The notes under the pieces were generated by a model. It saw only the letters and a list, made by a program, of their open reading frames with translations. It made no database searches and was not told where the DNA came from. Shown here one piece after another: positions 1-9,478 of a stretch of DNA of 64,000 nucleotides. The position numbers were made by a program, and so were the translations under genes. How positions within the stretch are numbered: the stretch's first letter is position 1; each line of letters opens with the position of its first letter. The DNA is from Thermodesulfobacteriaceae bacterium (GTDB lineage Bacteria > Desulfobacterota > Thermodesulfobacteria > Thermodesulfobacteriales > Thermodesulfobacteriaceae), in the NCBI GenBank assembly GCA_049414625.1, contig JBMSAU010000110.1, positions 13,915 to 77,914 on the forward strand, in the 5' to 3' direction.

Positions 1-625
1 TAACAAATATGCCAACAGCTTTATTTCTTACTTTTTCTGCCAATGTCAATATAAATTCCTGGGTTTGTAAACTTTCATAAACAAATTTAAGAGAAAAGCT
101 TATGTTGTTTACATTCATATTGTTTAACTGATCTACGAGTTTTGGATACGTATCTACATATTTATGTTGATATCTCATTTCTTTTGGTGATATGCTAAAA
201 TGAAATTTTATGTTATTACAATAAACAAAGTCATCTATTATAGGGTTTGTTCCATTTGTTTCTATTATGACAAAATCTTTTCCACTATATTCATTCCATA
301 GTTTTGATACTTCAATTATAAATGCTTGTCTATCTTCTGTCATTAAAGGTTCTCCACCAGTAAACATAAGCAAATAATCATTTAGCTCATAACTAACATT
401 CTGAACAGAATCAACTATATGGTTTGTTAATATGTAGTTTATCAGTTCCTCAGGACTAAAATCTTTACCTGGATTTGACCAATTCTCATAGCTATCACAG
501 AATTTACATCTTAGATTACAACTAGCAAATCTGATTAACAATACAGGTAATCCTATATATGCTCCTTCTCCTTGCAATGTCTTGAAAATTTGATAAATAC
601 GCTGTTTATTAACTTTGGTTGTCAT
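1..625 (-). CDS. queE: 7-carboxy-7-deazaguanine synthase (radical SAM), partial, runs off the window edge
   Basis: Not in the ORF track. Reverse translation from the ATG at 623-625 gives MTTKVNKQRIYQIFKTLQGEGAYIGLPVLLIRFASCNLRCKFCDS..., matching the QueE QGEG...CxxxCxxC signature. Exact CTAAATT-N7-ATG lies upstream (633-639). Confidence 0.85.
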   Translation of the reverse strand, partial: MTTKVNKQRIYQIFKTLQGEGAYIGLPVLLIRFASCNLRCKFCDSYENWSNPGKDFSPEELINYILTNHIVDSVQNVSYELNDYLLMFTGGEPLMTEDRQAFIIEVSKLWNEYSGKDFVIIETNGTNPIIDDFVYCNNIKFHFSISPKEMRYQHKYVDTYPKLVDQLNNMNVNNISFSLKFVYESLQTQEFILTLAEKVRNKAVGIFV

Positions 626-719
626 GCTAATAAATTTAGGTATATTGTAGCAAAAAACTAATCTAAGTGGTATTTATAGGCTTTTTTGATTATTTTTGTG
701 TCCTACATATTTAGTTGCT

Positions 720-748
720 ATTCTACCCTGAAGATAAATACCCGTCAA
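720..748 (-). promoter_or_regulatory. sigma70-type promoter upstream of queE: -35 TTGACG, 17-nt spacer, -10 TAGAAT
   Basis: On the minus strand, TTGACG (748-743), then a 17-nt spacer, then TAGAAT (725-720). It is preceded by the hairpin CTCCA...TGGAG. It is homologous to the module at 51817-51885. Confidence 0.55.
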
Positions 749-1356
749 TCTTTTCGCAATTCATCTCCACTTTTGTAGAGGATGGAGACATCAAGCATAC
801 AGGTTAAACTTATAGTCTTGTACTCTTTATCAAGTTGATCTTTAGCTGATTTTCCGTTTGCTGTAACTAGCAAAGGTTCGTTACGTGTAAAACCTTTAAT
901 GATAGCTCTGTTTTCCAAAACAATGGGAGCATTTGACCAATTGTAAACTGGGATCGGATTTCTTTTCTCTATCTTCAATACCTGAGATAAAGTGAGCATA
1001 CCAATACTTTGATAGAGATTAATTTTAGCCCAGAAATTTTTGTTGTTAAGTAGGTTATGATGTAGTTGTTCAAATGTTAGTGAAGCTATACCATGTGGAA
1101 CATGTATTGTAATTCGTGTATCAGCAACACCTGTTATTAAACAACTATCTTTATTGTTTGCTTCAAAGACTAACAGATATAATTCATTAACAAATTTTAC
1201 TTCTATATCAGATAACTCTTTTGTAATATAATTTCCATTTACAATAAATATTTTTTTGTCAAAATTCCAATATTTTCGTATGTTTTTCTGTATTTGTTCT
1301 CGCAATATCTGCATATTCTTAGTTGCTGTTAGTTGCTTTATATAATATCTAGACAA
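745..1356 (-). CDS. hypothetical protein
   Basis: ORF track entry with a TTG start. CTAAAATT variant lies just upstream. The 3' end overlaps the hairpin/promoter module for queE. Confidence 0.6.
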   Translation of the reverse strand: MSRYYIKQLTATKNMQILREQIQKNIRKYWNFDKKIFIVNGNYITKELSDIEVKFVNELYLLVFEANNKDSCLITGVADTRITIHVPHGIASLTFEQLHHNLLNNKNFWAKINLYQSIGMLTLSQVLKIEKRNPIPVYNWSNAPIVLENRAIIKGFTRNEPLLVTANGKSAKDQLDKEYKTISLTCMLDVSILYKSGDELRKD

Positions 1357-1556
1357 AAAATTTTAGAATACAAAAGGATGATTAATTTTTTGTTTAGATT
1401 GACTAGATAATTTATGTTCTAATTCTTTTTGTTTCTCTATAATTTTAGTTGCTTGAACATGAAATATAATCATAAAACTAGCGGGTAAATTAAAAATATC
1501 TAAATCTTTAATTTCCAAAACCAGAGCATTGCTCAAAAATGTTATTGGACTTAATT

Positions 1557-2441
1557 TTACTGTATGAAGATGTTGAAAAAATGTTGTATAGGTTCAAATG
1601 TAATCTCATTTTGATTTCCACATTCCTGACACGTAAACATATACTTTAAATTAATTCTTTCCTGACGATAAGGTTCAATAGCTTTGTTGAGTTTTCTTGT
1701 TATGATTTTGACTAGACTTTCAGGTAAATCTCTTAATACAGATACGTTTCCACTTGTAGCATTATACATTAGTTTAATTTTCTCCTGAGGTCCAGTTTCA
1801 AATATATATAGACTGTGAACATACTCAAAATTTGTAAAGGGAGCATTTATTACATCCTCAATATTTATACAAGCCAATGGGAAACCAACTCTTATTCTAA
1901 TATCTAGATTTTCCACATTTATATTTATATCTGTTGGTTCAAGACTCTTTTCTGGTAATTCAAAAATCAGTGGATAGATAGGTTTCTCTATCTCAAATTG
2001 CTCTCTTAGGTTTTTTATATGTTCAAGTATGTCAATATTGGGATCGTTGAATAAATTCAAATCATATGTGAGCACAAAATTATTTTCACTGTTGCATTTG
2101 GAACAATATTCCTTCACTTCAATAACAGTTAATGTTGCTAGCAACTCAATTATCGGTAGTATGAGATAATGTTTTTCTTCTAGTGTGATTTTTTGACTAA
2201 CTTGATCATACTCTTCTACACAATTCTCAACATAATTATCTATGATTTTATACAGGAACTTTATTCTCTCTAGACTTTTTTCTTCCTTATCTACATTACC
2301 AGCTGTTTGCAATGCTAAAAGATTGTTCATAATATTTATTCTTTGTTTTGCTAGTGGTTCTTTTACTGTTACGTATTGATTACTTTGAGGTAGATAAACT
2401 CTGATTCTCTTGCGAAGCTCTTCAAACTTACTCTTTTGCAT
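1557..2441 (-). CDS. hypothetical zinc-ribbon protein (CSKC...CQEC)
   Basis: The ORF track extends to a TTG at 2477. The first ATG is at 2439-2441 (MQKSKFEEL...). Two CxxC pairs are present. Confidence 0.55.
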   Translation of the reverse strand: MQKSKFEELRKRIRVYLPQSNQYVTVKEPLAKQRINIMNNLLALQTAGNVDKEEKSLERIKFLYKIIDNYVENCVEEYDQVSQKITLEEKHYLILPIIELLATLTVIEVKEYCSKCNSENNFVLTYDLNLFNDPNIDILEHIKNLREQFEIEKPIYPLIFELPEKSLEPTDININVENLDIRIRVGFPLACINIEDVINAPFTNFEYVHSLYIFETGPQEKIKLMYNATSGNVSVLRDLPESLVKIITRKLNKAIEPYRQERINLKYMFTCQECGNQNEITFEPIQHFFNIFIQ

Positions 2442-2534
2442 GTTTGGTATTGCTTTGTATTGTATAAAAAATAGCAAATATTTATTATGAAGGACAAGAA
2501 GAAGAAGAAGAAAGGCGGAAAAAAGTAATCAATG

Positions 2535-3029
2535 CTATATAACCATAATAGTTCTATGACTAATCAATTTTGATAGTATAACCTCGTATCTTGTAATGCG
2601 AATATGATAATTTTTATTCAATGTTGTAATATAGTCTTTAATTTTTTGTTCACTACACAAAACAATTATTGAATCTGTGGTCATATCTTTAATCTCCGTT
2701 TGATCAAAATAATCTACTCTCAATATTCTTTTGTTTATTTCTGCTATATAGTTTGTTTTGAATTTTTTGTGAAATTCTATCATCAGTGATTTCTTATCTC
2801 TGCTAGACGTGATACCAAAATCACTACTCAAAATGTCATTGTATTGATCTGATTTAATGAAGTCAACTAACCTATCAAACTTTCTAACATTTGCTGATAA
2901 ATATCTCATAGTTTGAAAGAAGCCATCAATTAAATCTATCTCAAATAGGTAGGGATCTTTAAATACATACACGGATGGTAAAATACCATTATCGCGGAAT
3001 ATATGTTTAATCAATGTATCTGATAGCAT
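2535..3029 (-). CDS. hypothetical protein
   Basis: ORF track entry. One-mismatch motif CTAAACT-N7-ATG lies upstream. Confidence 0.6.
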   Translation of the reverse strand: MLSDTLIKHIFRDNGILPSVYVFKDPYLFEIDLIDGFFQTMRYLSANVRKFDRLVDFIKSDQYNDILSSDFGITSSRDKKSLMIEFHKKFKTNYIAEINKRILRVDYFDQTEIKDMTTDSIIVLCSEQKIKDYITTLNKNYHIRITRYEVILSKLISHRTIMVI

Positions 3030-3074
3030 ATAACTAAGTTTAGATATGTTGTATTTTAAAGCTAAAATTTAACC

Positions 3075-4643
3075 ATGATGTTTGTTAGCCTACAGTTCAA
3101 GCTTGAACTGAAAAAAGAAGACAAAGAAAAACTCATAAAGCTAATGCGCAAGCAATCCTCTGCTATTCGTGTAGCATACAATATGCTAAAGGAGTTGGAA
3201 AAAGAAGAAACAAAAAACCCTCACTCTCAGATATACCACAGATTAAGACAGTTATTTCCTGAGTTGCCAACAGGATACATTAATTCAGCCATATACAAAG
3301 CTAAACAGTATACTACTGATAAATCAGTGGTATTTGGAGGTAGAAGACTTTTTGAAAAGCTTTGCAAAAACCACCTTACAGGAAAAGCAAGAGAAAAACT
3401 TAAAAAGCAATGGAGAGAACTAAGACAAGGAACATTGATTGCCATAGGTTCAAAACATAAAACCGTACAGGGTAATCAACTACTCAGGTTTGTGGAACTG
3501 GATGGAAAACTACATCTAAGAATTACCACAGGAAAAAGAGAGTTTATCTACGCAAAAGTGTTAAGAGAACCCAGCAATAGCAAAGATAAGTGGATAACTT
3601 TTATGATTATGCTTTTAGAAAGTTGGCAAACAAAAAACTACTTCGCCTACACAGTAGAACTAAAGCTAAGAGATGGAGAAGTTTATGGAAGCGTATCTTT
3701 TGAGATCCCAACACCTGAAGTGAAATACACCAAAGAAAACGGAGTAATAGCAGTAGACACAAACGCATCACCAATTCACTTAGCCATAGCAGAAGTTTCA
3801 AAGACTGGAGAACTGTTAAGCTATCAAACTATTAGCTTACACTACCTTTTAGGACTTTCCAAAAACACCAAGGATCATCAAGAGTGGATATTAGCCCATC
3901 AGATAGTGGATTTGGCTATTGAGAAAGGCAAAGCTATAGCAGTGGAAAATCTAAAGAAACTCAAAAAGGGAACCCGTGGAGATGGCAAGGCTAAACTGAG
4001 AAGAATACTTCACAGCTGGAACGCCAAAAAGTTTTTACAAAAGCTAAAAAGAGTAGCAAAGCTAAAAGGTGTAGAAGTGATAGAGGTCAACCCTGCCTAT
4101 ACCTCAGTTATCGGTATGCTAAAGTATGCACCGCAATTGAACATAGACAAGGATATTGCAGGTGCTTATGTAATAGGAAGAAGGGCACTGGGATTTAAAG
4201 AAGATACACCCGAGAATTACGAAAGACTACTAAAGGACAAGGCATATCTGGAGTTTGCACTGAAAAGATATGAAGAAAGAGAAAAGGAACTTAGAGAAAT
4301 TATAGAGAAGGAAAGCAACAAATACAAGAGAAATGCACTAAAAAGCGAACTAAAGAATGTAGAGAATGCAAAGAACATTTTAGTTAATCTCATACAAAGC
4401 CTTCAGAGTGAGTCAAGCTCCTGTGAGGGAGCCGATGGAAGGAATCCCGAGCAGGGAGAGACTAAAGAAGTCTCTCAAGTAGCTTGGCAAGTTCTGAAGG
4501 TAGCCTTCCTCTTCCCTATCCTTGGAAAGGTCTTACCAAGAGACCTTTCTTCTCTGAAGCCCATATTGGTGGAAGGGATGTGGGATAGGGTGAGGTATTC
4601 TAAAGGGTTAGCTCCTTTAGAGGCTGGAGGGGCGTCCCGATAA
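3075..4643 (+). CDS. tnpB: TnpB-like (IS200/IS605 OrfB family) RuvC nuclease lacking the zinc-ribbon insert
   Basis: The N-terminus SLQFKLELKKEDKEKLIKLMRKQSSAIRVAYN is TnpB-like. RuvC-I is VIAVDTNASP, RuvC-II is AIAVENLKKL, followed by VNPAYTS. RuvC-III is DKDIAGAYVIGRRAL. No CxxC...CxxC lies between NPAYTS and RuvC-III. G+C is visibly higher than in the flanks. Confidence 0.8.
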   Translation: MMFVSLQFKLELKKEDKEKLIKLMRKQSSAIRVAYNMLKELEKEETKNPHSQIYHRLRQLFPELPTGYINSAIYKAKQYTTDKSVVFGGRRLFEKLCKNHLTGKAREKLKKQWRELRQGTLIAIGSKHKTVQGNQLLRFVELDGKLHLRITTGKREFIYAKVLREPSNSKDKWITFMIMLLESWQTKNYFAYTVELKLRDGEVYGSVSFEIPTPEVKYTKENGVIAVDTNASPIHLAIAEVSKTGELLSYQTISLHYLLGLSKNTKDHQEWILAHQIVDLAIEKGKAIAVENLKKLKKGTRGDGKAKLRRILHSWNAKKFLQKLKRVAKLKGVEVIEVNPAYTSVIGMLKYAPQLNIDKDIAGAYVIGRRALGFKEDTPENYERLLKDKAYLEFALKRYEEREKELREIIEKESNKYKRNALKSELKNVENAKNILVNLIQSLQSESSSCEGADGRNPEQGETKEVSQVAWQVLKVAFLFPILGKVLPRDLSSLKPILVEGMWDRVRYSKGLAPLEAGGASR

Positions 4644-4663
4644 GGGATCTTTAGAACAGCCTC
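4399..4663 (+). ncRNA. candidate omega-RNA-like structured RNA overlapping the tnpB 3' end
   Basis: Perfect local stems: 4417-4421/4428-4432, 4456-4462/4470-4476 (7 bp), 4525-4533/4541-4549 (9 bp) and 4620-4626/4657-4663 (7 bp). Long-range pairs: 4401-4408/4552-4559 and 4514-4521/4583-4590. The in-frame translation here is low-complexity and not protein-like. Confidence 0.45.
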
Positions 4664-4675
4664 AGCATCGTAATC

Positions 4676-5932
4676 ATGTTTAAATTGGGTAACTTTGCTT
4701 TTGTTGGTAAAGATGTATCAGACAGATATAAAGATATTGATTACTTTTTGTATCAACAACATCTTGATGTTCTAGCAACATCAAACTGGGTATTATTCAA
4801 ACCATTTTATCAAAAAGATATTAACACTTCTAGATTGCATAATAAAATCAAAACGCTATTAATAGTTATGTTGCTTGTTAATGATCCCGGCTATACAAAT
4901 TTAGTAAATTGGTTCAAAGGTGTAGACGGATTGCAAGTAGCTGATTCAATTCCACATCTTATATTGCGGCATTTCAAAGTTCTTGAACAATATTTAAGGG
5001 AAGGTGTAAATTTTACAGGTGTAACAAAATTTACAACAAACAGTTTCAGTAAACAATTAGCTAGGGCAAAAAACAGACTAACAAATGTAAGTAACTTAGT
5101 GTACTTAGCTAAAGAACTGGATGTCAGTCTGCAGTACAACAATACACTAGAAAATGATGCAGGTATACAATTATTAAATTTTGGTATAGAGATGGCATCG
5201 GGTATTATTACAAATGTAGCAATATTAGCTGCTATTGGTGAATTGCTTGTAGATACTATTAATCAACTGATACCAAATCAAATATTTACTAGCTTAGATA
5301 GTGGTTTAAACAAAATAACTGACATTATTAGAAATTTAGTGTTAGCTAAACAACCAGCTTATCCTCAAGCATATGAGAGTAGTACATACTTACTATCAGT
5401 TAACATTAATATGAGATTTGTTGCAAACAGTTTCAATGAATTTGTTGAGAATATATTAGTACCTCTTATTGGTTTGTATATGATATCTGCTCCTACTTTA
5501 TGGAGTGATTATTGGTCTAATAATGATGATGCTATATCTCAATTTCTTAAATCTGGAACATTTCTAAGCAGATTATTTACTGCTCCACCTTATATGTTTT
5601 CATGTCTAGTTCCAGGACAAGTTTTTATACCAGTAGCCGCAGTTCAAAACATTAGTTTTACTCCATCTAAAGAGACTTTTATTTCAGGTCATCCAAAGTA
5701 TGTTGATGTAAATATGACTGTCATTGATCTCATACCTGTTTTATTGTTTTCATCAACAACAACAGATGGAACACCATCATTCAATCCTCTAGCAGGAGGC
5801 TTCCAAGCTCCAAGTAACTATAGAAAGCGATTCATAGAGGAGTTAATGAAACTTGAGAATGAATTTGAAGTTAAAGAGGATGCTCAAAAAATTTTAGTGT
5901 TAGGTCATCCTATACTTAAAAATATAAAGTAG
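4676..5932 (+). CDS. tail/baseplate-associated protein, short paralogue of 58854-60902 without the M23 domain
   Basis: Shared blocks with 58854-60902: FGKDV near the N-terminus, LVPGQVFIP versus LVPGKIFIP, SKETF..G.PK, LENEF versus LDNEF, and GHPILK. Confidence 0.65.
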   Translation: MFKLGNFAFVGKDVSDRYKDIDYFLYQQHLDVLATSNWVLFKPFYQKDINTSRLHNKIKTLLIVMLLVNDPGYTNLVNWFKGVDGLQVADSIPHLILRHFKVLEQYLREGVNFTGVTKFTTNSFSKQLARAKNRLTNVSNLVYLAKELDVSLQYNNTLENDAGIQLLNFGIEMASGIITNVAILAAIGELLVDTINQLIPNQIFTSLDSGLNKITDIIRNLVLAKQPAYPQAYESSTYLLSVNINMRFVANSFNEFVENILVPLIGLYMISAPTLWSDYWSNNDDAISQFLKSGTFLSRLFTAPPYMFSCLVPGQVFIPVAAVQNISFTPSKETFISGHPKYVDVNMTVIDLIPVLLFSSTTTDGTPSFNPLAGGFQAPSNYRKRFIEELMKLENEFEVKEDAQKILVLGHPILKNIK

Positions 5933-5954
5933 CAACAATACTAAATTTTTTTGT

Positions 5955-7775
5955 ATGAAGTTTGATAACTGTGCTTCATGTATGTTAAGAGATCGTCCTA
6001 TTGTTATGGAGGATTACATAGATAATGATTCAGATCAAACTATTATGTTAGTTGGTGAAGCACCAGGTTACACAGAAGCAAAAACGGGTAAGCCATTTAC
6101 AGGTAAATCAGGCTCCATAATTCGCAACATTATAAAACAAATCAAAAACTACAATATTGTAATAACAAATAGTGTTTTATGTCATCCAGATAAGAATGAA
6201 ACTCCAAATGATACTGTGCTAACAAAATGTAGACCAAACATCATTAATCAAATACAAAAATATTCACCAGTTAAAATTATTACACTAGGTAATAGAGGCT
6301 TGCAACAAATATGTAAAATTTACCAACTTAAGCATATCAAAGCATCACAAAAAGGATTTATAGACACTGTTTTGGATAGGAATACTAAACAAAAGATAGA
6401 AATTTATGCAACATATCATCCTGCTTACTATTTGAGAAGTAGAGAAGAGGATATCATAAATCATATTTTGGATACATTTAAGCAAGTAACAAATAATCCA
6501 AATCTAGTCTACATAGATACAGCAAGCAAAGTAGAAGCAGCAAAACAATTAGAGTTCTTACAATCAGAATATGATAGTGCTAAGAATTTAGATTTGGATA
6601 TTGATTTAAATGGATATGATATAATATCCTGCTTTGAATATGAAAATTATATGTTGTTATGTTTATACAAACCTGAAGCAGGCAAAAAGATTATCGGATT
6701 ACCAATTCAAACTTTTGTACATAATTTTGAAGCAGACAAAAAATTCAATTTTGCTACATTTGTAACAGGAGATAAAAAAGAACTCAGAATTGTTAGCAGA
6801 AACTACAGTAAAATACTTAGCGACTACATAAAAAATATAAATGGTAAAAGCTCTTCATTTGGAGTTATAGAGGGCAGTTTAGTTCAGAATTTTGCATTAT
6901 TCCTATCAGTATCTAGAAATAGATCGTTTCACAAACCCAGTTATGCATATTTGGATATAGAAGTTTTAAACAATGAAGGAGAATTTCCAGATCCAGTTAT
7001 AGCTGATAGACCCATCATATGTTACAGTTATATGGATAACAATAAGAACAAAATATATAGTTGTTACTTGCAAACAAAACATGTAGATTTACAAACAGTA
7101 AAAAAATATTTACCAGAACAAGTTAGTCAAGAAATTGAATTGATTGCTTTCGAAAATGAAAAGGATTTAGTTGTTCACATAACCAATAAAATAAAAGATG
7201 AGTTTGCTTTGTATGTTGGTTGGAATGTTGGCTTTGACGTATCATACATCATAAACAGATACATAAAGCTAACAAACGATAGTTCCATTATTCCCTGTAA
7301 AGTGAATGATGAAAAGAATGTGGGTACAGATTGTGACTTGGTCTATGGTGCAACAATAGATTTGTTAAAGATGTATCGCAATATAAAACCAGATCTAACA
7401 TCTTACTCTTTGGATAATGTCTCAAAATTAGAATTAAAATCTAGCAAAGTAAAACTAAACAAATCCTTAAAACAAATCTGGGATGAAGACCCAAGCTTAG
7501 TTATTGCATACAACATATATGACACTATTCTGGTTAGCATGATAGATGAAAAATATAAGTTTGTAGATCAATATCACTATTTGAGATCTTTGTATGAATT
7601 ACCTTTTAATGAGAAATTTGTTAACAGTAAAGTTTTAGCTACAACTATTAAGTTGATTGCAGTTGCTCTGAGACATAATCTAATTCCAACTATGTTAGTT
7701 AGCAAAACAATTGATTCGTATACAGGAGCATATGTAAGAGAGTTTATAAAAGGTGTATTTAGAGTAGAATCTTAA
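5955..7775 (+). CDS. family-4 uracil-DNA glycosylase domain fused to the family-B DNA polymerase N-terminal/3'-5' exonuclease domain (polymerase fragment 1)
   Basis: GEAPG...PFTG.SG matches the UDG4 signature. ExoI is YLDIEV, ExoII is GWNVGFDVSYI, ExoIII is AYNIYD. The protein ends at YTGAYVREFIKGVFRVES, just before polymerase motif A. Exact CTAAATT-N7-ATG lies upstream. Confidence 0.85.
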   Translation: MKFDNCASCMLRDRPIVMEDYIDNDSDQTIMLVGEAPGYTEAKTGKPFTGKSGSIIRNIIKQIKNYNIVITNSVLCHPDKNETPNDTVLTKCRPNIINQIQKYSPVKIITLGNRGLQQICKIYQLKHIKASQKGFIDTVLDRNTKQKIEIYATYHPAYYLRSREEDIINHILDTFKQVTNNPNLVYIDTASKVEAAKQLEFLQSEYDSAKNLDLDIDLNGYDIISCFEYENYMLLCLYKPEAGKKIIGLPIQTFVHNFEADKKFNFATFVTGDKKELRIVSRNYSKILSDYIKNINGKSSSFGVIEGSLVQNFALFLSVSRNRSFHKPSYAYLDIEVLNNEGEFPDPVIADRPIICYSYMDNNKNKIYSCYLQTKHVDLQTVKKYLPEQVSQEIELIAFENEKDLVVHITNKIKDEFALYVGWNVGFDVSYIINRYIKLTNDSSIIPCKVNDEKNVGTDCDLVYGATIDLLKMYRNIKPDLTSYSLDNVSKLELKSSKVKLNKSLKQIWDEDPSLVIAYNIYDTILVSMIDEKYKFVDQYHYLRSLYELPFNEKFVNSKVLATTIKLIAVALRHNLIPTMLVSKTIDSYTGAYVREFIKGVFRVES

Positions 7776-8023
7776 TGAGGATTTTTTTGTGTAATAGCAA
7801 CTACACTAAATTTAAAGATATGAGTAGTTTGTCTAGGCCGTATTACATTTTACTAAATAATAGTTCAGATGAAGATAATTTGTCTAGCATTATACAATTT
7901 GTTAGAAAACAACTAGGTCCAAATGCTAACATAAAAGTTATAAGAAAGCCACCACAATATATTGATCCGCTGTTCCGATTGAGATATGAAGGAACTACAA
8001 TAGATATTTATGAAGAAGCTTAA
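7775..8023 (+). CDS. hypothetical protein
   Basis: ORF track entry. The start overlaps the upstream stop as TAATG. Confidence 0.5.
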   Translation: MRIFLCNSNYTKFKDMSSLSRPYYILLNNSSDEDNLSSIIQFVRKQLGPNANIKVIRKPPQYIDPLFRLRYEGTTIDIYEEA

Positions 8024-8035
8024 CAAAAAAACATC

Positions 8036-9478
8036 TTAAACTATTTCATAATCCCAACCAAATAAATTGAAGAACTTTTTTCTACCATGAACCATAAATA
8101 ATATGGCAGGATTAAGTTCAACTCCAACTGTGTATATTTTTGATGTCCGTTTTTTAGGATTGTATGTTATTGTTGCAACCTGATACATTGTATGTATCCT
8201 AACTGTGTATGGTTTTACAATCGTTATTGGATCTGAGAGTAACTGATAAGTCATTATCTTTCTACGACCATTAACATAGAAGTAATAGTTGTCAATTAAC
8301 TGAGGCAGTTCAACCTCTAATATATCTTCTTGACCTCCTGGTAGTTGTATGTGAAATCTAACTTTTGAGACTAATGTAACTCTGTTATTGCTAAATGGTT
8401 TAACATGATCAATGTCAACTTTCTTAATCTTTATACCTTGATCTTCCATAATTCTAATCATTGCAGGTATTATGGTGCTATATTGTTCAATCCTATCATT
8501 CTTTATGATTCTCTCATCTTTCTGAGTTAAAAATCTAGAGAATGTTGGTATATGCAATTCTTTTCTCTCGAATGTTATGCTGCTAATATCAGGTATATGT
8601 TTTCTCTCTAGTGAGATATTTAATGTATGTGAAGCAGATATAAACTTTTTGAATTGATATTCTGTTTTGTTAGTCGGTTTATAGTTTGTAACATTTTGAT
8701 CTGCTATTGAGTATAATTTGTTTGTAGTAGTTGTTTGTTTATCTGTCTCCTCGGGAGCAAACTTTTTAAGATATTTATCCAAAATTTCTATAATCAAATA
8801 AGGTTGTCTGCTAACATTTGTTAGTTTAAGTATTTGCATTTTTACATCATTATCGTAGCCTCTACTTGTAACTATTGCCACGTATATTTCCGAAAACAAA
8901 TTAAGCCAATTGCTTCCATAATAGAGAATTTTACCGATAACATCATTTCTGATATTGTTTATGTTTAGTATATTTGCTGCGAACTGAGGATCAAATATCA
9001 ATACTAAAATGTTATTACTGTTTTGTTGCAAAACAAAATGATTCTCAATTATTTTGGTTAATGTTCTGTTTAGTTGTATGTATCTGGATTGATAATAGTT
9101 ATGTAAACTGCTAAATATTAGTGTTAAGTCTATGAAGTTAGCAACAGTCAAACTAAGTTTGTTATATGCTTTCTCTGGTTCTGCTACATCATCATTACTT
9201 TGTGATAGCATAGGAATTTTTGTTCTCCAATTTAAAACTGTAATGCCCTGTTGTGTTAAGGCTTTACGATATTCTATGTATGCATTCTGATTAGTTATAG
9301 TTAGCTTTGGAATAACAACCGTTGGTCTTAGCCTTGGTTTTATGTAATTGTTTATAAGTGACTTTATTATATTGTAGGTGTTAAAGGTTAAATCAAGTAG
9401 AAATATCTTTTGATTGTTAGATCGGATATAGGGTATTCTTACAATTCTTGGCTTTTGATTACTTTTGGTAGATAACAT
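8036..9478 (-). CDS. hypothetical protein
   Basis: ORF track entry of 480 aa. The start overlaps the upstream stop as TAATG. The C-terminal YYFYVNGRRKIMTYQLLSDP is faintly reminiscent of the RNAP beta FIINGxERV block, which is not enough for a call. Confidence 0.6.
   Translation of the reverse strand: MLSTKSNQKPRIVRIPYIRSNNQKIFLLDLTFNTYNIIKSLINNYIKPRLRPTVVIPKLTITNQNAYIEYRKALTQQGITVLNWRTKIPMLSQSNDDVAEPEKAYNKLSLTVANFIDLTLIFSSLHNYYQSRYIQLNRTLTKIIENHFVLQQNSNNILVLIFDPQFAANILNINNIRNDVIGKILYYGSNWLNLFSEIYVAIVTSRGYDNDVKMQILKLTNVSRQPYLIIEILDKYLKKFAPEETDKQTTTTNKLYSIADQNVTNYKPTNKTEYQFKKFISASHTLNISLERKHIPDISSITFERKELHIPTFSRFLTQKDERIIKNDRIEQYSTIIPAMIRIMEDQGIKIKKVDIDHVKPFSNNRVTLVSKVRFHIQLPGGQEDILEVELPQLIDNYYFYVNGRRKIMTYQLLSDPITIVKPYTVRIHTMYQVATITYNPKKRTSKIYTVGVELNPAILFMVHGRKKFFNLFGWDYEIV

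What the first reader, a model, noticed from the sequence alone, without database searches (positions are those of the whole stretch)
3062..4675. Zinc-ribbon-less TnpB-like nuclease with an omega-RNA-like structured 3' region, wired into the phage expression signal
The ORF 3075-4643 has the TnpB N-terminus and all three RuvC acidic residues (AVDTN, AVENL, DKDIAGAY). The segment between NPAYTS and RuvC-III is only about 17 aa and has no CxxC pairs. It is followed by an atypical coiled-coil-like extension of about 80 aa.

The last ~245 nt of the ORF plus about 20 nt after the stop (4399-4663) are much more G+C-rich than anything nearby. They contain several perfect 7-9 bp stems plus nested long-range pairings, and they translate into a low-complexity tail. 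This is what a guide-RNA scaffold overlapping the tnpB 3' end looks like.

I can see no left-end sequence or tnpA. The AT-rich phage sequence, carrying a CTAAAATT variant of the phage start cassette, runs right up to the ATG. The gene therefore looks domesticated rather than part of an intact IS.
Basis: partly seen in the sequence, partly recalled or inferred. Interest (0 to 1): 0.75.

Follow-up and report, generated by a model that had tools for sequence, protein, structure and literature searches.

The report
TnpB insertion sequence landed in phage
This is a recently inserted, left-truncated copy of a very abundant hot-spring bacterial jumping gene that encodes a zinc-finger-less TnpB-type nuclease and a conserved guide-RNA-like structure, not a gene the phage has tamed; the wider element family moves in a way not described for TnpB elements.

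Summary
The ORF at 3075-4643 is a TnpB/Cas12-fold protein with D228/E291/D360 and no zinc finger. Window 4396-4663 is a G+C-rich, strongly structured stretch.

The guide-RNA-scaffold reading is well supported. The fold is on the sense strand and is kept by compensatory changes in about 100 close copies and 10 distant subfamilies. One RNA motif is conserved in two different reading frames.

The "domesticated, wired into the phage signal" reading is not supported. Window 3055-4663 is a 1,609-bp insertion that is absent from two sister phages (97-98.6% identical). It belongs to a multi-copy Aquificales element, and the bases just before the ATG are the element's own -10 box. The copy lacks about 41 nt of its left end.

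The zinc-finger-less architecture is already described (Pfam SSO2105_N; TnpB clade RIIIr-4). Relatives carry an IS607-type serine tnpA.

What looks new is how the Thermocrinis-type subfamily inserts:
- It has no tnpA.
- It has perfect 17-bp terminal inverted repeats.
- It makes 9-12 bp target duplications.
- It has a one-sided GKCA motif exactly 10 nt upstream of the left end (P about 3e-40).
- Its right end is always intact, while its left end can be truncated or extended.

The mechanism of mobility is unresolved.

The parts
3055..4663 (+). Whole inserted element (1,609 bp). It is a left-truncated copy of a tnpA-less, TnpB-encoding insertion sequence of Aquificales.
   Evidence: Window 1-3054 and 4664-9000 are contiguous in sister phages L045 and L046, apart from one A. 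The stretch is 81-87% identical at nucleotide level to more than 100 bacterial copies, with sharp edges at 3054/3062 and 4663-4666.
3055..3074 (+). Remnant of the element's left end. It holds the element's own -10 box TAAAAT (3063-3068). The outer ~41 nt (17-nt terminal inverted repeat, TTGACA -35 box) are missing.
   Evidence: Canonical left end: GAGGCTGTTCTAAAAATACAAACCCATTGACACACAAGAG-TTTTAAAGCTAAAATCTAACCCTG-ATG. The promoter scan finds only a hybrid site, phage TTTAGA (3039) -18- TAAAAT.
3075..4643 (+). ORF of 522 aa: a zinc-finger-less TnpB-like RuvC protein (Pfam SSO2105_N).
3756..3758 (+). Codon of D228 (RuvC-I, AVDTN).
   Evidence: Invariant in 20 diverse and 69 family sequences.
3945..3947 (+). 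Codon of E291 (RuvC-II, AVENL).
   Evidence: Invariant or nearly invariant.
4152..4154 (+). Codon of D360 (RuvC-III, DKD-IAGAYVIGRR). It is Asp in relatives that share at least 38% identity and His in 13 of 13 more distant family members.
   Evidence: The His form matches clade RIIIr-4 of Altae-Tran et al. 2023.
4212..4406 (+). Helical-hairpin (coiled-coil-like) extension after RuvC-III, residues about 380-444.
   Evidence: AlphaFold2 helices 380-386, 389-412 and 416-444, pLDDT about 91.
4396..4504 (+). RNA domain 1: long-range stem P1 (4399-4409 with 4491-4501), P2, the GGAAGGAA hairpin P3 and the variable hairpin P4.
   Evidence: Fold. Covariance model R2 hits all 10 distant subfamilies. 93.5% of cells are paired and 18 of 33 pairs change on both sides, with 0 of 500 shuffles reaching this.
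4456..4476 (+). Variable hairpin P4, GAGAGACT-aaaga-AGTCTCTC. Other copies carry wholly different but still paired stems. It encodes a disordered protein linker.
   Evidence: The stem is swapped with pairing kept while the peptide changes from ETKEVSQV to RVAKTTLQS or RGNKASSS. Protein residues 446-466 have pLDDT about 30.
4502..4622 (+). RNA domain 2: outer stems, P5, P6 hairpin, P7.
   Evidence: Covariance model R1 hits all 10 distant subfamilies, E from 6e-18 to 1e-3. 94.2% of cells are paired and 20 of 34 pairs change on both sides, with 0 of 500 shuffles reaching this. It is the only hit in the window.
4612..4663 (+). RNA domain 3 and the right end: a hairpin at 4612-4634, then the 17-nt right terminal inverted repeat at 4647-4663 (ATCTTTAGAACAGCCTC).
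   Evidence: Two covarying pairs in the hairpin. A frame-breaking 1-nt indel at 4633 occurs in 18 of 22 copies. Conservation stops at 4663.
4664..4683 (+). Flank that would supply the guide if the RNA works like a TnpB omega-RNA (AGCATCGTAATCATGTTTAA). It overlaps the start of phage gene 4676..5932.
   Evidence: Inference from TnpB geometry. No terminator-like site follows the ORF.

Best explanation
Window 3055-4663 is a recent, lineage-specific insertion into a hot-spring phage. The inserted DNA is a mobile element that is very abundant in Aquificales (Thermocrinis, Hydrogenobacter, Ca. Caldipriscus).

The element descends from IS607-type transposons but has lost the serine-recombinase tnpA. 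It consists almost entirely of one gene, for a zinc-finger-less TnpB-family RuvC protein with an intact D-E-D triad. The last ~250 nt of that gene plus 20 nt downstream also encode a three-domain structured sense RNA that ends exactly at the right end of the element.

The most likely working is that of a TnpB/omega-RNA pair. The mRNA 3' part is bound, and probably processed, by the protein as a guide-RNA scaffold. The guide is read from the DNA just beyond the right end. The complex recognises DNA next to a short motif.

Shown here: the insertion and its empty site; family membership and fold; the missing Zn finger; the conserved sense-strand structure with covariation; and dual coding.

Inferred, not shown: that the RNA is a guide, that the protein cleaves DNA, and how the element inserts.

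The phage copy lacks the outer 41 nt of the left end, has no target duplication and sits at a site without the family's target motif. It therefore arrived by a non-canonical event and is probably immobile. It is not a long-domesticated phage gene.
For: Insertion and empty site:
- Sister phages L045 and L046 (98.6% and 97% identical) read ...GTTGTAT-A-AGCATCG... where the window carries 1,609 bp.
- L047 shares the identical junction, so the insertion is inherited within a phage sub-lineage.

Mobile element:
- 2,049 protein hits at 85-90% identity.
- 44 genomic loci, with at least 12 copies in one Thermocrinis MAG and 4 in the isolate Hydrogenobacter sp. RSW1.
- More than 431 metagenome loci.
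- pN/pS of 0.13-0.15.

Protein:
- TIGR01766 scores 60.7 bits against a cutoff of 32.
- AlphaFold2 pLDDT 83.9.
- Foldseek hits to Cas12f, TnpB and Cas12k with probability 1.0.
- D228, E291 and D360 are invariant in 69 relatives.
- No Cys pairs are present.

IS607 ancestry: an overlapping MerR-HTH+Resolvase gene lies upstream in L130, L140 and L144-146. NCBI names its homologues 'IS607 family transposase'.

RNA:
- Folding z = -5.1.
- Codon periodicity collapses after 4335.
- Whole-stem swaps keep the pairing.
- 1,310 G.U cells against 27 A.C cells, which marks the sense strand.
- The same architecture appears in 10 subfamilies.
- GGAAGGAAY is conserved in two reading frames.
- Covariance-model hits and covariation counts.

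TnpB-like geometry: GKCA lies directly 5' of the duplicated 10 nt. In an empty site, the motif is therefore immediately followed by the sequence found beyond the right end.
Against: - No RNA or cleavage data exist for this family.
- No Rfam family matches.
- NCBIfam's 'guided_TnpB' model scores below its cutoff (52 bits against 100).
- The Zn-finger (TNB) domain, which in solved TnpB and Cas12f structures helps feed DNA to RuvC, is absent.
- The tail is also under protein-level constraint. The ORF stays open in 21 of 23 copies; W471, R489, D490, S492 and L494 are invariant; and residues 465-510 are predicted to fold. Part of the conservation is therefore not due to RNA.
- The phage target sites lack GKCA, so the window copy's RNA, even if functional, may not be able to target the empty phage allele.
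Confidence: 0.75

Rival explanations
1. It is a domesticated TnpB-like nuclease that the phage has recruited, stripped of transposon ends and driven by the phage's own start cassette.
For: - The left terminal repeat and -35 box are indeed missing.
- The only promoter-like site is a hybrid of a phage -35-like hexamer and the element's -10 box.
- The phage has a real cassette, CTAAATTTTTTTnnATG (21 of 67 ORFs). The element's CTAAAATTTAACC-ATG resembles it, with similar spacing.
- The insertion is inherited in at least two phage genomes.
- The ORF and the RNA module are intact.
Against: - Sister phages 97-98.6% identical lack it.
- No relative of the protein was found in 2.9 million viral contigs.
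- The bases before the ATG are element DNA, present in all bacterial copies.
- The T variant and the extra ATG also occur in the nearest bacterial relatives.
- The right end is intact.
- The differences between the two phage-borne copies are two dense patches typical of gene conversion from other copies, not of independent evolution under phage selection.
Confidence: 0.07
2. The conserved 3' structure is not a guide-RNA scaffold. It would instead be a cis-acting transposon end (single-stranded DNA or a protein-binding site), or an mRNA 3' stabiliser or translational regulator of a thermophile gene.
For: - It ends exactly at the transposon end and includes the terminal repeat.
- Deletion derivatives keep left end plus 3' module (L044, L122), and solo 3' modules exist (L019 6386-6634). 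Cis-acting ends would behave this way.
- G+C-rich structures are generally favoured in thermophile RNAs.
Against: - About 230 nt in three domains, with 38 of 67 modelled pairs covarying, is far more than IS607-type end repeats need.
- Abundant G.U pairs point to the sense-strand transcript.
- Position, size and overlap with the ORF 3' end match omega-RNAs of solved TnpBs.
- Solo modules are equally expected for guide RNAs acting in trans.
Confidence: 0.15
3. The Thermocrinis-type elements, including the ancestor of the window copy, are non-autonomous passengers. They would be moved in trans by an unlinked transposase that recognises the 17-bp terminal inverted repeats. This could be a DDE-type enzyme (which would explain the repeats and duplications) or an IS607 serine TnpA.
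For: - Perfect 17-bp terminal inverted repeats and 9-12 bp target duplications are the classical DDE signature.
- Other short units share the same termini.
- Altae-Tran et al. report inverted repeats for all DDE-associated TnpBs, and solo TnpBs sharing ends with transposase-bearing partners.
- Relatives carry a serine tnpA.
Against: - No second protein-coding partner with these termini was seen in about 0.5 Mb of flanks.
- The target motif is strictly one-sided: 34 of 76 on the left, against 1 of 97 for the mirror motif on the right. A two-fold symmetric DDE transpososome does not predict this.
- Duplication length varies from 9 to 12.
- Left ends that are truncated, or extended by donor flank, still join precisely at the right end. 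This is not expected from two-ended cut-and-paste.
- Serine recombinases make no duplications, and IS607-type relatives show none.
- No Thermocrinis or Hydrogenobacter TnpA appears among the named top hits.
Confidence: 0.3

Closest known systems
TnpB clade RIIIr-4 (Altae-Tran et al. 2023, PNAS, PMC10691335); Pfam PF27229 SSO2105_N
   Same: - TnpB-family fold with no C4 zinc finger between RuvC-II and RuvC-III.
- Predicted to be catalytically active.
- Represented in viruses.
- TnpBs are especially common in Aquificae.
- Distant members of the window protein's family carry His at the RuvC-III position, as that clade does.
- The exact protein carries PF27229 in the precomputed annotation.
   Different: - The window protein and all relatives that share at least 38% identity keep Asp (DKD or SKD) at RuvC-III.
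- I could not place it in the published tree.
- I found no published description of the transposon ends, target site or RNA of this clade.
IS607-family transposons (serine-recombinase TnpA plus TnpB)
   Same: - Three related subfamilies have an overlapping MerR-HTH+Resolvase tnpA directly upstream.
- Their left ends (GGAGGTTCACAAC..TTGACA) resemble the Thermocrinis-type left end.
- The 3' RNA module is shared.
   Different: - The window and Thermocrinis-type element has no tnpA.
- It has perfect 17-bp terminal inverted repeats and makes 9-12 bp target duplications.
- IS607 elements have neither repeats nor duplications (PMC6188088 abstract).
ISDra2 / IS200-IS605 TnpB with omega-RNA (reRNA)
   Same: - Fold matches to 8h1j, 8exa and 8bf8.
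- The guide-RNA-like scaffold overlaps the 3' end of the ORF and stops at the right end.
- A short motif lies on the left-end side. In the empty site it directly precedes the sequence found beyond the right end.
   Different: - No Y1 TnpA and no zinc finger.
- The protein is about 115-150 aa longer, with a helical hairpin and a translated tail.
- The element inserts 10 nt downstream of the motif, with duplication, not directly at it.
- IS200/IS605 elements have no terminal inverted repeats or target duplications (PMC13565253).
One-ended, replicative or rolling-circle transposition (Tn3-family one-ended events, IS91/ISCR) and 5'-truncating target-primed copying (non-LTR retroelements). This comparison is from my own knowledge, not tested.
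   Same: - One constant end (the right end).
- A variable other end that can be truncated, or extended into donor flank (89-nt transduction in L051).
- Variable-length target duplications.
   Different: - No HUH, DDE or reverse-transcriptase gene is present in the element.
- Two-thirds of copies do end at a precise left inverted repeat.

Membership tests
TnpB / OMEGA RNA-guided nuclease family | RuvC (RNase H-fold) domain with the split D-E-D catalytic triad | tested here: met
   TIGR01766 scores 60.7 bits against a cutoff of 32. D228, E291 and D360 are invariant in 69 relatives. Foldseek matches TnpB, Cas12f and T. thermophilus RuvC.
TnpB / OMEGA RNA-guided nuclease family | N-terminal WED/REC architecture shared with TnpB and Cas12f | tested here: met
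   Foldseek alignments of 398-502 columns to Cas12f, Cas12k and TnpB, probability 1.0. TIGR01765 (N-terminal domain) scores 25.9 bits, below its cutoff of 47.
TnpB / OMEGA RNA-guided nuclease family | C4 zinc finger (TNB domain) between RuvC-II and RuvC-III | tested here: not met
   There are 15 Cys-free residues between NPAYTS and D360. The Pfam TNB profile matches only positions 3-28 of 60. This loss is known in some TnpB clades.
TnpB / OMEGA RNA-guided nuclease family | Structured RNA scaffold overlapping the ORF 3' end and ending at the right transposon end | tested here: met
   Conservation stops sharply at 4663.
TnpB / OMEGA RNA-guided nuclease family | Target-adjacent motif on the left-end side that precedes the guide-matching sequence in the empty site | tested here: inconclusive
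   GKCA ends 9-12 nt before the left end in 34 of 76 flanks (P = 3e-40) and directly precedes the duplicated bases. The geometry fits, but the motif could equally be the preference of whatever enzyme inserts the element. It is absent at the two phage sites.
TnpB / OMEGA RNA-guided nuclease family | RNA-guided DNA binding or cleavage | not testable with these tools
   This needs biochemistry. No published data were found for this clade.
TnpB clade RIIIr-4 (Altae-Tran 2023) | Lacks the C4 zinc finger | tested here: met
TnpB clade RIIIr-4 (Altae-Tran 2023) | RuvC-III catalytic Asp replaced by His | tested here: not met
   The window protein and 68 relatives have Asp360. 13 of 13 more distant family members have His. 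The protein is therefore in or next to that lineage but not typical of it.
TnpB clade RIIIr-4 (Altae-Tran 2023) | Placement inside the clade in the published tree | not tested
   The published tree and alignments were not available to the tools.
IS607 family | Serine-recombinase TnpA (MerR-like HTH plus resolvase domain) upstream of tnpB | tested here: not met
   Absent from the window copy and from about 120 Thermocrinis-type copies, where only 65 nt precede the ATG. Present in related subfamilies L130, L140 and L144-146.
IS607 family | No terminal inverted repeats and no target-site duplication | tested here: not met
   The element has a 17-bp perfect inverted repeat and 9-12 bp duplications in 26 of 67 copies with both flanks. 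The Ammonifex and Sulfurihydrogenibium relatives do conform.
IS200/IS605 family (including the IS1341 group) | Y1 (HUH) TnpA, or ends with subterminal hairpins; insertion directly 3' of the target motif; no inverted repeats or duplications | tested here: not met
   No Y1 gene is present. Inverted repeats and duplications are present, and the insertion lies 10 nt from the motif. The family definition is taken from PMC13565253.
DDE-type insertion sequence | Terminal inverted repeats and a fixed-length target duplication | tested here: inconclusive
   The repeats are met. The duplication is present but varies from 9 to 12 nt, and the target motif is one-sided.
DDE-type insertion sequence | A DDE transposase gene inside the element | tested here: not met
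   The only ORF is the TnpB-like gene.
TldR (TnpB-like nuclease-dead repressors) or other exapted TnpBs | Inactivated RuvC triad, an immobile single-copy locus and a fixed genomic neighbourhood | tested here: not met
   The triad is intact. The element is multi-copy and inserted at many sites. It is polymorphic among sister phages.

The most novel reading that the evidence does not exclude
The Thermocrinis-type elements may have swapped IS607-style serine recombination for a new, self-contained mode of movement. In that mode the zinc-finger-less TnpB-like RuvC protein, probably with its 3' RNA, itself selects the target (one-sided GKCA motif). It would make the staggered break that yields the 9-12 bp duplication, or drive a copy-in that starts from the right end.

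This would explain four observations together:
- high copy number with a single ORF;
- perfect 17-bp inverted repeats;
- an always-intact right end;
- left ends that are truncated or carry transduced donor flank.

It would make a TnpB-family protein a transposase or integrase, not only a homing nuclease.
Probability: 0.2. Interest if true: 0.9.

Novelty: new variant of a known kind. Interest (0 to 1): 0.6.

Why it matters
TnpB-only elements are the most numerous TnpB loci in prokaryotes. It is still unclear how they spread without a linked transposase.

This family has thousands of near-identical copies in hot-spring Aquificales, one cultivated host with four copies, and copies caught entering a phage. 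It offers clear, countable insertion signatures that do not fit the two known TnpB transposon families (IS200/IS605 and IS607):
- inverted repeats;
- 10-bp duplications;
- a one-sided motif at a fixed 10-nt offset;
- one-ended insertion products.

It also gives a well-supported structure for the RNA of the uncharacterised zinc-finger-less TnpB lineage. This is a compact thermophilic protein-RNA pair of possible interest for genome-editing tool development. It is also a clean example of a sequence constrained simultaneously as protein and as RNA.

For the phage itself the finding is ordinary: a polymorphic insertion-sequence copy.

Tried and rejected
- Rfam scan of 2500-5500 at E up to 10: nothing relevant.
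- blastn of 2500-6000 against 50,697 phage records: no match.
- Search for relatives of the protein in IMG/VR viral contigs: none.
- Literature searches for TnpB with target duplications and inverted repeats, TnpB plus Thermocrinis, IS1341, SSO2105/ISC1913 and RIIIr-4. These yielded only the clade definition, with no description of this element's ends or RNA.
- A two-fold symmetric target site, which would point to a DDE transpososome: rejected, since the mirror motif occurs in 1 of 97 flanks.
- A protein-coding partner sharing the terminal repeats in the fetched flanks: none found. Only short derivatives and left-end-extended variants turned up.
- IS607 TnpA in Thermocrinis or Hydrogenobacter: none among the named top 120 hits. 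This is not conclusive, because most hits are unnamed metagenome proteins.
- dN/dS between the two phage-borne copies as a test of domestication: abandoned, because the differences are two recombination patches.
- The upstream in-frame ATG and the T variant of the -10 region as phage adaptations: rejected, since they are present in the nearest bacterial relatives.
- MAFFT/RNAalifold alone on the variable hairpin: the register differs between variants, so only its five outer pairs were modelled.
- The idea that the target motif matches a conserved RNA segment (UUGGCAA in P2): judged to be chance for a 5-mer and dropped.
- The idea that the RNA's terminal 17 nt guide cleavage at both inverted repeats: no GKCA lies next to them, so it was dropped.
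Full report
**1. What is in the window**

ORF 3075..4643 (+) encodes 522 aa. G+C is about 0.30 in the flanks and 0.35-0.40 in the gene body. It reaches 0.50 at 4401-4600.

Profile searches place the protein in the TnpB family:
- NCBIfam TIGR01766 ('TnpB-related protein') scores 60.7 bits against a cutoff of 32, over residues 271-344.
- The 'guided_TnpB' model and the N-terminal TIGR01765 model match below their cutoffs.
- Pfam's Cas12f1-like TNB profile matches only its first 28 of 60 positions, ending at NPAYTS.

An AlphaFold2 model built on 69 family members has mean pLDDT 83.9. Its 21 best PDB matches are all Cas12f, Cas12k, TnpB (8h1j, 8exa, 8iaz), Fanzor2, TranC or CasLambda, with probability about 1.0.

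D228, E291 and D360 are invariant in those 69 sequences. Fifteen Cys-free residues separate NPAYTS from D360, and no member of the wider family has a CxxC there. Residues about 380-444 form a confident helical hairpin. Residues 446-466 and 512-522 are predicted disordered.

**2. It is an insertion, and the empty site exists**

The protein has 2,049 database relatives. The best 120 are 85-90% identical and full length, and many are labelled Thermocrinis. A scan of one genome per species found 44 loci, all in Aquificales. At least 12 are in one Thermocrinis MAG, four in the isolate Hydrogenobacter sp. RSW1 and two in Ca. Caldipriscus. Metagenomes gave more than 431 further loci. Nucleotide similarity to the window runs from 3054/3062 to 4663-4666 and stops sharply.

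The neighbouring phage gene (4676..5932) led to two IMG/VR phage contigs, 98.6% and 97% identical to the window. In these, window 1-3054 is directly followed by window 4664 onwards, with a single A in between...GATATGTTGTAT-A-AGCATCGTAATCATG.... No viral contig in IMG/VR encodes a relative of the protein.

Hence 3055-4663 (1,609 bp) is a lineage-specific insertion into a 40-nt spacer between two divergent phage genes. A metagenome contig (L047) has the identical junction, so the insertion is inherited within a phage sub-lineage.

**3. Anatomy of the element family**

In bacterial copies the element extends about 41 nt further left than in the window. The canonical left end reads GAGGCTGTTCTAAAAATACAAACCCATTGACACACAAGAG-TTTTAAAGCTAAAATCTAACCCTG-ATG. 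The first 17 nt are the exact reverse complement of the last 17 nt of the element (...ATTTTTAGAACAGCCTC). The left end also carries TTGACA-N17-TAAAAT.

So the 'CTAAAATT' before the window's ATG is the element's own -10 region. The window copy has lost the left inverted repeat and the -35 box. The only promoter-like site left is a hybrid of a phage TTTAGA and the element's TAAAAT. No terminator-like site follows the ORF.

The phage does have a genuine start cassette. CTAAATT lies upstream of 21 of 67 ORFs, a 31-fold enrichment, usually as CTAAATTTTTTTnnATG. The element merely resembles it. The window's T variant and extra ATG also occur in its closest bacterial relatives.

**4. Insertion signatures**

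Of 121 copies with a left-end anchor, 80 have the full left end. Of 67 of those with both flanks, 26 are bracketed by perfect or near-perfect direct repeats of 9-12 nt (four of 9 nt, 14 of 10, three of 11, five of 12). The rest are plausibly recombinants or assembly chimeras. For example, two Hydrogenobacter copies have reciprocally swapped flanks.

Registered on the start of the duplication, the five preceding bases read T-G-K-C-A. C is found in 26 of 28 sites, A in 20 of 28 and G in 20 of 28. Over all 76 distinct left flanks, GKCA ends 9-12 nt (mode 10) before the left end in 34, against 1.2 expected (P = 3e-40). The mirror motif on the right occurs in 1 of 97. The target preference is therefore one-sided.

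A second class of copies has left ends truncated by about 10-41 nt that still abut a duplication: L001, L003, L009, L053, L087, L099, L111 and L118. Two of these lie in tRNA 3' ends. The right end is intact in all of them.

A sister phage (L051) carries an independent copy, 87.7% identical, at window position about 16363. This copy has several unusual features:
- It has no duplication.
- One target base is replaced.
- Its left end is truncated by about 13 nt.
- That left end is preceded by 89 nt of phage DNA from window 2662-2750.
- The join lies at an AAAAC microhomology.

The window copy is of the same non-canonical kind: no duplication, one base replaced, and no GKCA at the site.

**5. Ancestry**

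A profile search with 45-50% identical relatives shows that the family is widespread in thermophiles. Hosts include Ammonifex degensii (at least six copies), Sulfurihydrogenibium, Hydrogenobaculum and the archaeon Thermofilum. The precomputed Pfam family is PF27229, SSO2105_N.

In three separate subfamilies the gene is preceded, with overlap, by a 195-202 aa MerR-HTH+Resolvase gene (L130, L140, L144-146). NCBI names the homologues of that gene 'IS607 family transposase'. Ammonifex copies without it are deletion derivatives. The ends of these subfamilies are IS607-like: GGAGGTTCACAAC...TTGACA on the left and ...CCAGG on the right, with no long inverted repeat and no duplication.

The Thermocrinis-type element is therefore a tnpA-less descendant that has acquired inverted repeats and a duplication-making mode of insertion.

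**6. The published clade**

Altae-Tran et al. 2023 describe a major TnpB clade, RIIIr-4. It lacks the C4 zinc finger, has the RuvC-III Asp replaced by His, is predicted to be active and is represented in viruses. They also note that TnpBs are especially common in Aquificae.

In my alignment, 13 of 13 distant family members have His at that position. The window protein and all relatives that share at least 38% identity keep Asp. The zinc-finger-less architecture is therefore known, and the window protein belongs to an Asp-retaining part of that lineage or a neighbour of it.

Only two papers in the library mention the clade, and neither characterises its ends, target or RNA. A 2026 review states that IS200/IS605 elements have neither inverted repeats nor duplications. 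It also states that prokaryotic OMEGA systems outside IS605/IS607 remain uncharacterised.

**7. The 3' region is a conserved sense-strand RNA structure that overlaps coding sequence**

Window 4385-4680 folds at -126 kcal/mol with z = -5.1. The reverse strand gives z = -3.2 and an ORF-body control +0.3.

Across 23 full copies, third-position diversity exceeds that of positions 1 and 2 by 2- to 10-fold up to about 4335. It then drops to about 1 over most of the tail.

The hairpin at 4456-4476 is replaced in other copies by entirely different, still perfectly paired stems. The encoded peptide changes completely, and that protein segment is predicted to be disordered.

In 103 distinct modules the predicted pairs contain 1,310 G.U cells but only 27 A.C cells, so the structure is read from the sense strand.

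Ten subfamilies with only 40-48% protein identity fold into the same three-domain architecture. The motif GGAAGGA(A/G)Y is conserved in frame 0 (Gly-Arg-Asn) in four of the eleven loci examined and in frame 1 ((Trp/Arg)-Lys-Glu) in six, which cannot be protein-level conservation.

Two covariance models were built only from Thermocrinis-type copies. Each finds exactly one full-length, sense-strand hit at the ORF 3' end in all ten distant loci, and none in the insert-free phage loci.

| Measure | Domain 2 (4502-4622) | Domain 1 (4396-4504) |
|---|---|---|
| E-value range of the ten hits | 6e-18 to 1e-3 | 3e-12 to 5e-6 |
| Cells forming a standard pair | 94.2% | 93.5% |
| Same, after shuffling | 78% | 76% |
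| Same, with 3' partners slid 1-3 columns | 45-60% | 38-53% |
| Pairs changed on both sides | 20 of 34 | 18 of 33 |
| Shuffles reaching the observed values for these two measures | 0 of 500 | 0 of 500 |

The tail is also constrained as protein:
- The ORF stays open in 21 of 23 copies.
- W471, R489, D490, S492 and L494 are invariant.
- Residues 465-510 are predicted to fold.

The region is therefore dual-coding. The last ten or so codons are free: a 1-nt indel is present in 18 of 22 copies. No Rfam family matches.

**8. How it most likely works**

Shown:
- It is a mobile-element insertion.
- It encodes a TnpB-fold protein with an intact triad.
- It carries a conserved sense RNA that ends at the right end of the element.

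Inferred from established TnpB biology: the RNA is the omega-RNA scaffold, and its guide is transcribed from the flank beyond 4663. The family's target geometry supports this. In an empty site, GKCA is immediately followed by exactly the sequence that lies beyond the right end of the filled site. That is where a TnpB target-adjacent motif should be.

Unresolved: what inserts the element. Inverted repeats and duplications suggest a transposase that recognises both ends. Four observations argue against a classical symmetric DDE event and against serine recombination:
- the one-sided motif;
- the variable duplication length;
- the always-intact right end;
- left ends that are truncated or carry donor flank.

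These observations fit a process anchored at the right end, with the left junction made either at the inverted repeat or by host repair. I could not find a partner transposase, but I also could not scan whole genomes for it.

**9. The phage copy**

The window and L047 differ at 7 of 1,480 flanking positions. They differ at 37 positions within the element, all in two patches (3312-3415 and 4334-4543) and none in the remaining ~1,180 nt. This is the pattern of gene conversion from other copies. It implies that the phage replicates in cells that carry the element, that is, in Aquificales. The NCBI record for the contig, however, is labelled as a Thermodesulfobacteriaceae MAG.

The copy has an intact ORF and an intact RNA module (124.9 bits). 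It has no left repeat, so it is probably immobile. There is no evidence that the phage uses it.

**10. Verdict**

The TnpB and guide-RNA-like parts of the interpretation are supported. The domestication and phage-wiring part is not. The protein architecture is already known. The element's insertion signatures and its RNA structure appear to be undescribed and are the interesting part.

Noticed in passing
window, upstream of many ORFs (e.g. 5955, 12196, 12789, 15267, 32595, 63579): The phage has a strongly recurring start cassette, CTAAATTTTTTTnnATG. The 7-mer CTAAATT lies within 35 nt upstream of 21 of 67 ORFs of at least 80 aa, a 31-fold enrichment. With only about 14 nt between the motif and the ATG, this may mark very short-leader or leaderless late transcripts.
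   Followed up: partly
window ~16363 (empty here); L051 1363-3083: A sister phage contig carries a second, independent copy of the element (87.7% identical) at this site. It has no duplication, one base is replaced, the left end is truncated, and 89 nt of phage DNA from window 2662-2750 are joined at an AAAAC microhomology. This looks like 5' transduction from an earlier donor site in a phage.
   Followed up: partly
window 3312-3415 and 4334-4543 compared with L047: All 37 differences between the two phage-borne copies fall in two dense patches. The flanking phage DNA differs at 0.5%. This suggests gene conversion from host-borne copies, and hence an Aquificales host.
   Followed up: partly
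whole window / contig: The exact protein's contig (94,403 bp) is deposited at NCBI as a Thermodesulfobacteriaceae MAG. The window is 97-98.6% identical to IMG/VR viral contigs and encodes phage-type DNA polymerase and baseplate-like proteins. It is probably a mis-binned phage genome.
   Followed up: partly
L013 and L027 (Hydrogenobacter sp. RSW1): The left flank of one copy matches the right flank of the other, and vice versa (AGCTATAATA / GTTTATCGTA). This indicates a chromosomal inversion by recombination between two copies.
   Followed up: no
L009 and L111: Two copies sit in the 3' end of tRNA genes with 12-nt duplications. Their left ends start exactly at the TTGACA box. This is a recurrent truncated form whose origin is unexplained.
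   Followed up: no
L002 2776-2956 (also L049, L050, L065, L084, L091, L096, L028, L031, L125): Units of about 180 bp are bounded by the same 17-nt termini in inverted orientation. In L002 the whole composite (unit plus element) is bracketed by a 9-nt duplication, TGAACATTT. Deletion derivatives (L044, L122) and solo 3' modules (L019 6386-6634, L034, L061) also exist.
   Followed up: partly
window 5955-7775: The 606-aa ORF matches phage DNA polymerase families over residues about 273-603. Its N-terminus contains a GEAPG motif reminiscent of family-4 uracil-DNA glycosylases (my reading, not tested). This may be a UDG-polymerase fusion.
   Followed up: no
L145 211-807: An IS607-type relative (serine tnpA plus an SSO2105_N gene) lies next to a gene with an STIV_B116-like domain. 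The context is therefore that of an archaeal virus or provirus.
   Followed up: no
window 4437-4445 and homologous positions in L127-L143: The RNA motif GGAAGGA(A/G)Y is translated in two different frames in different subfamilies while the ORF stays open. This is an unusually clear case of overlapping RNA and protein constraint.
   Followed up: yes
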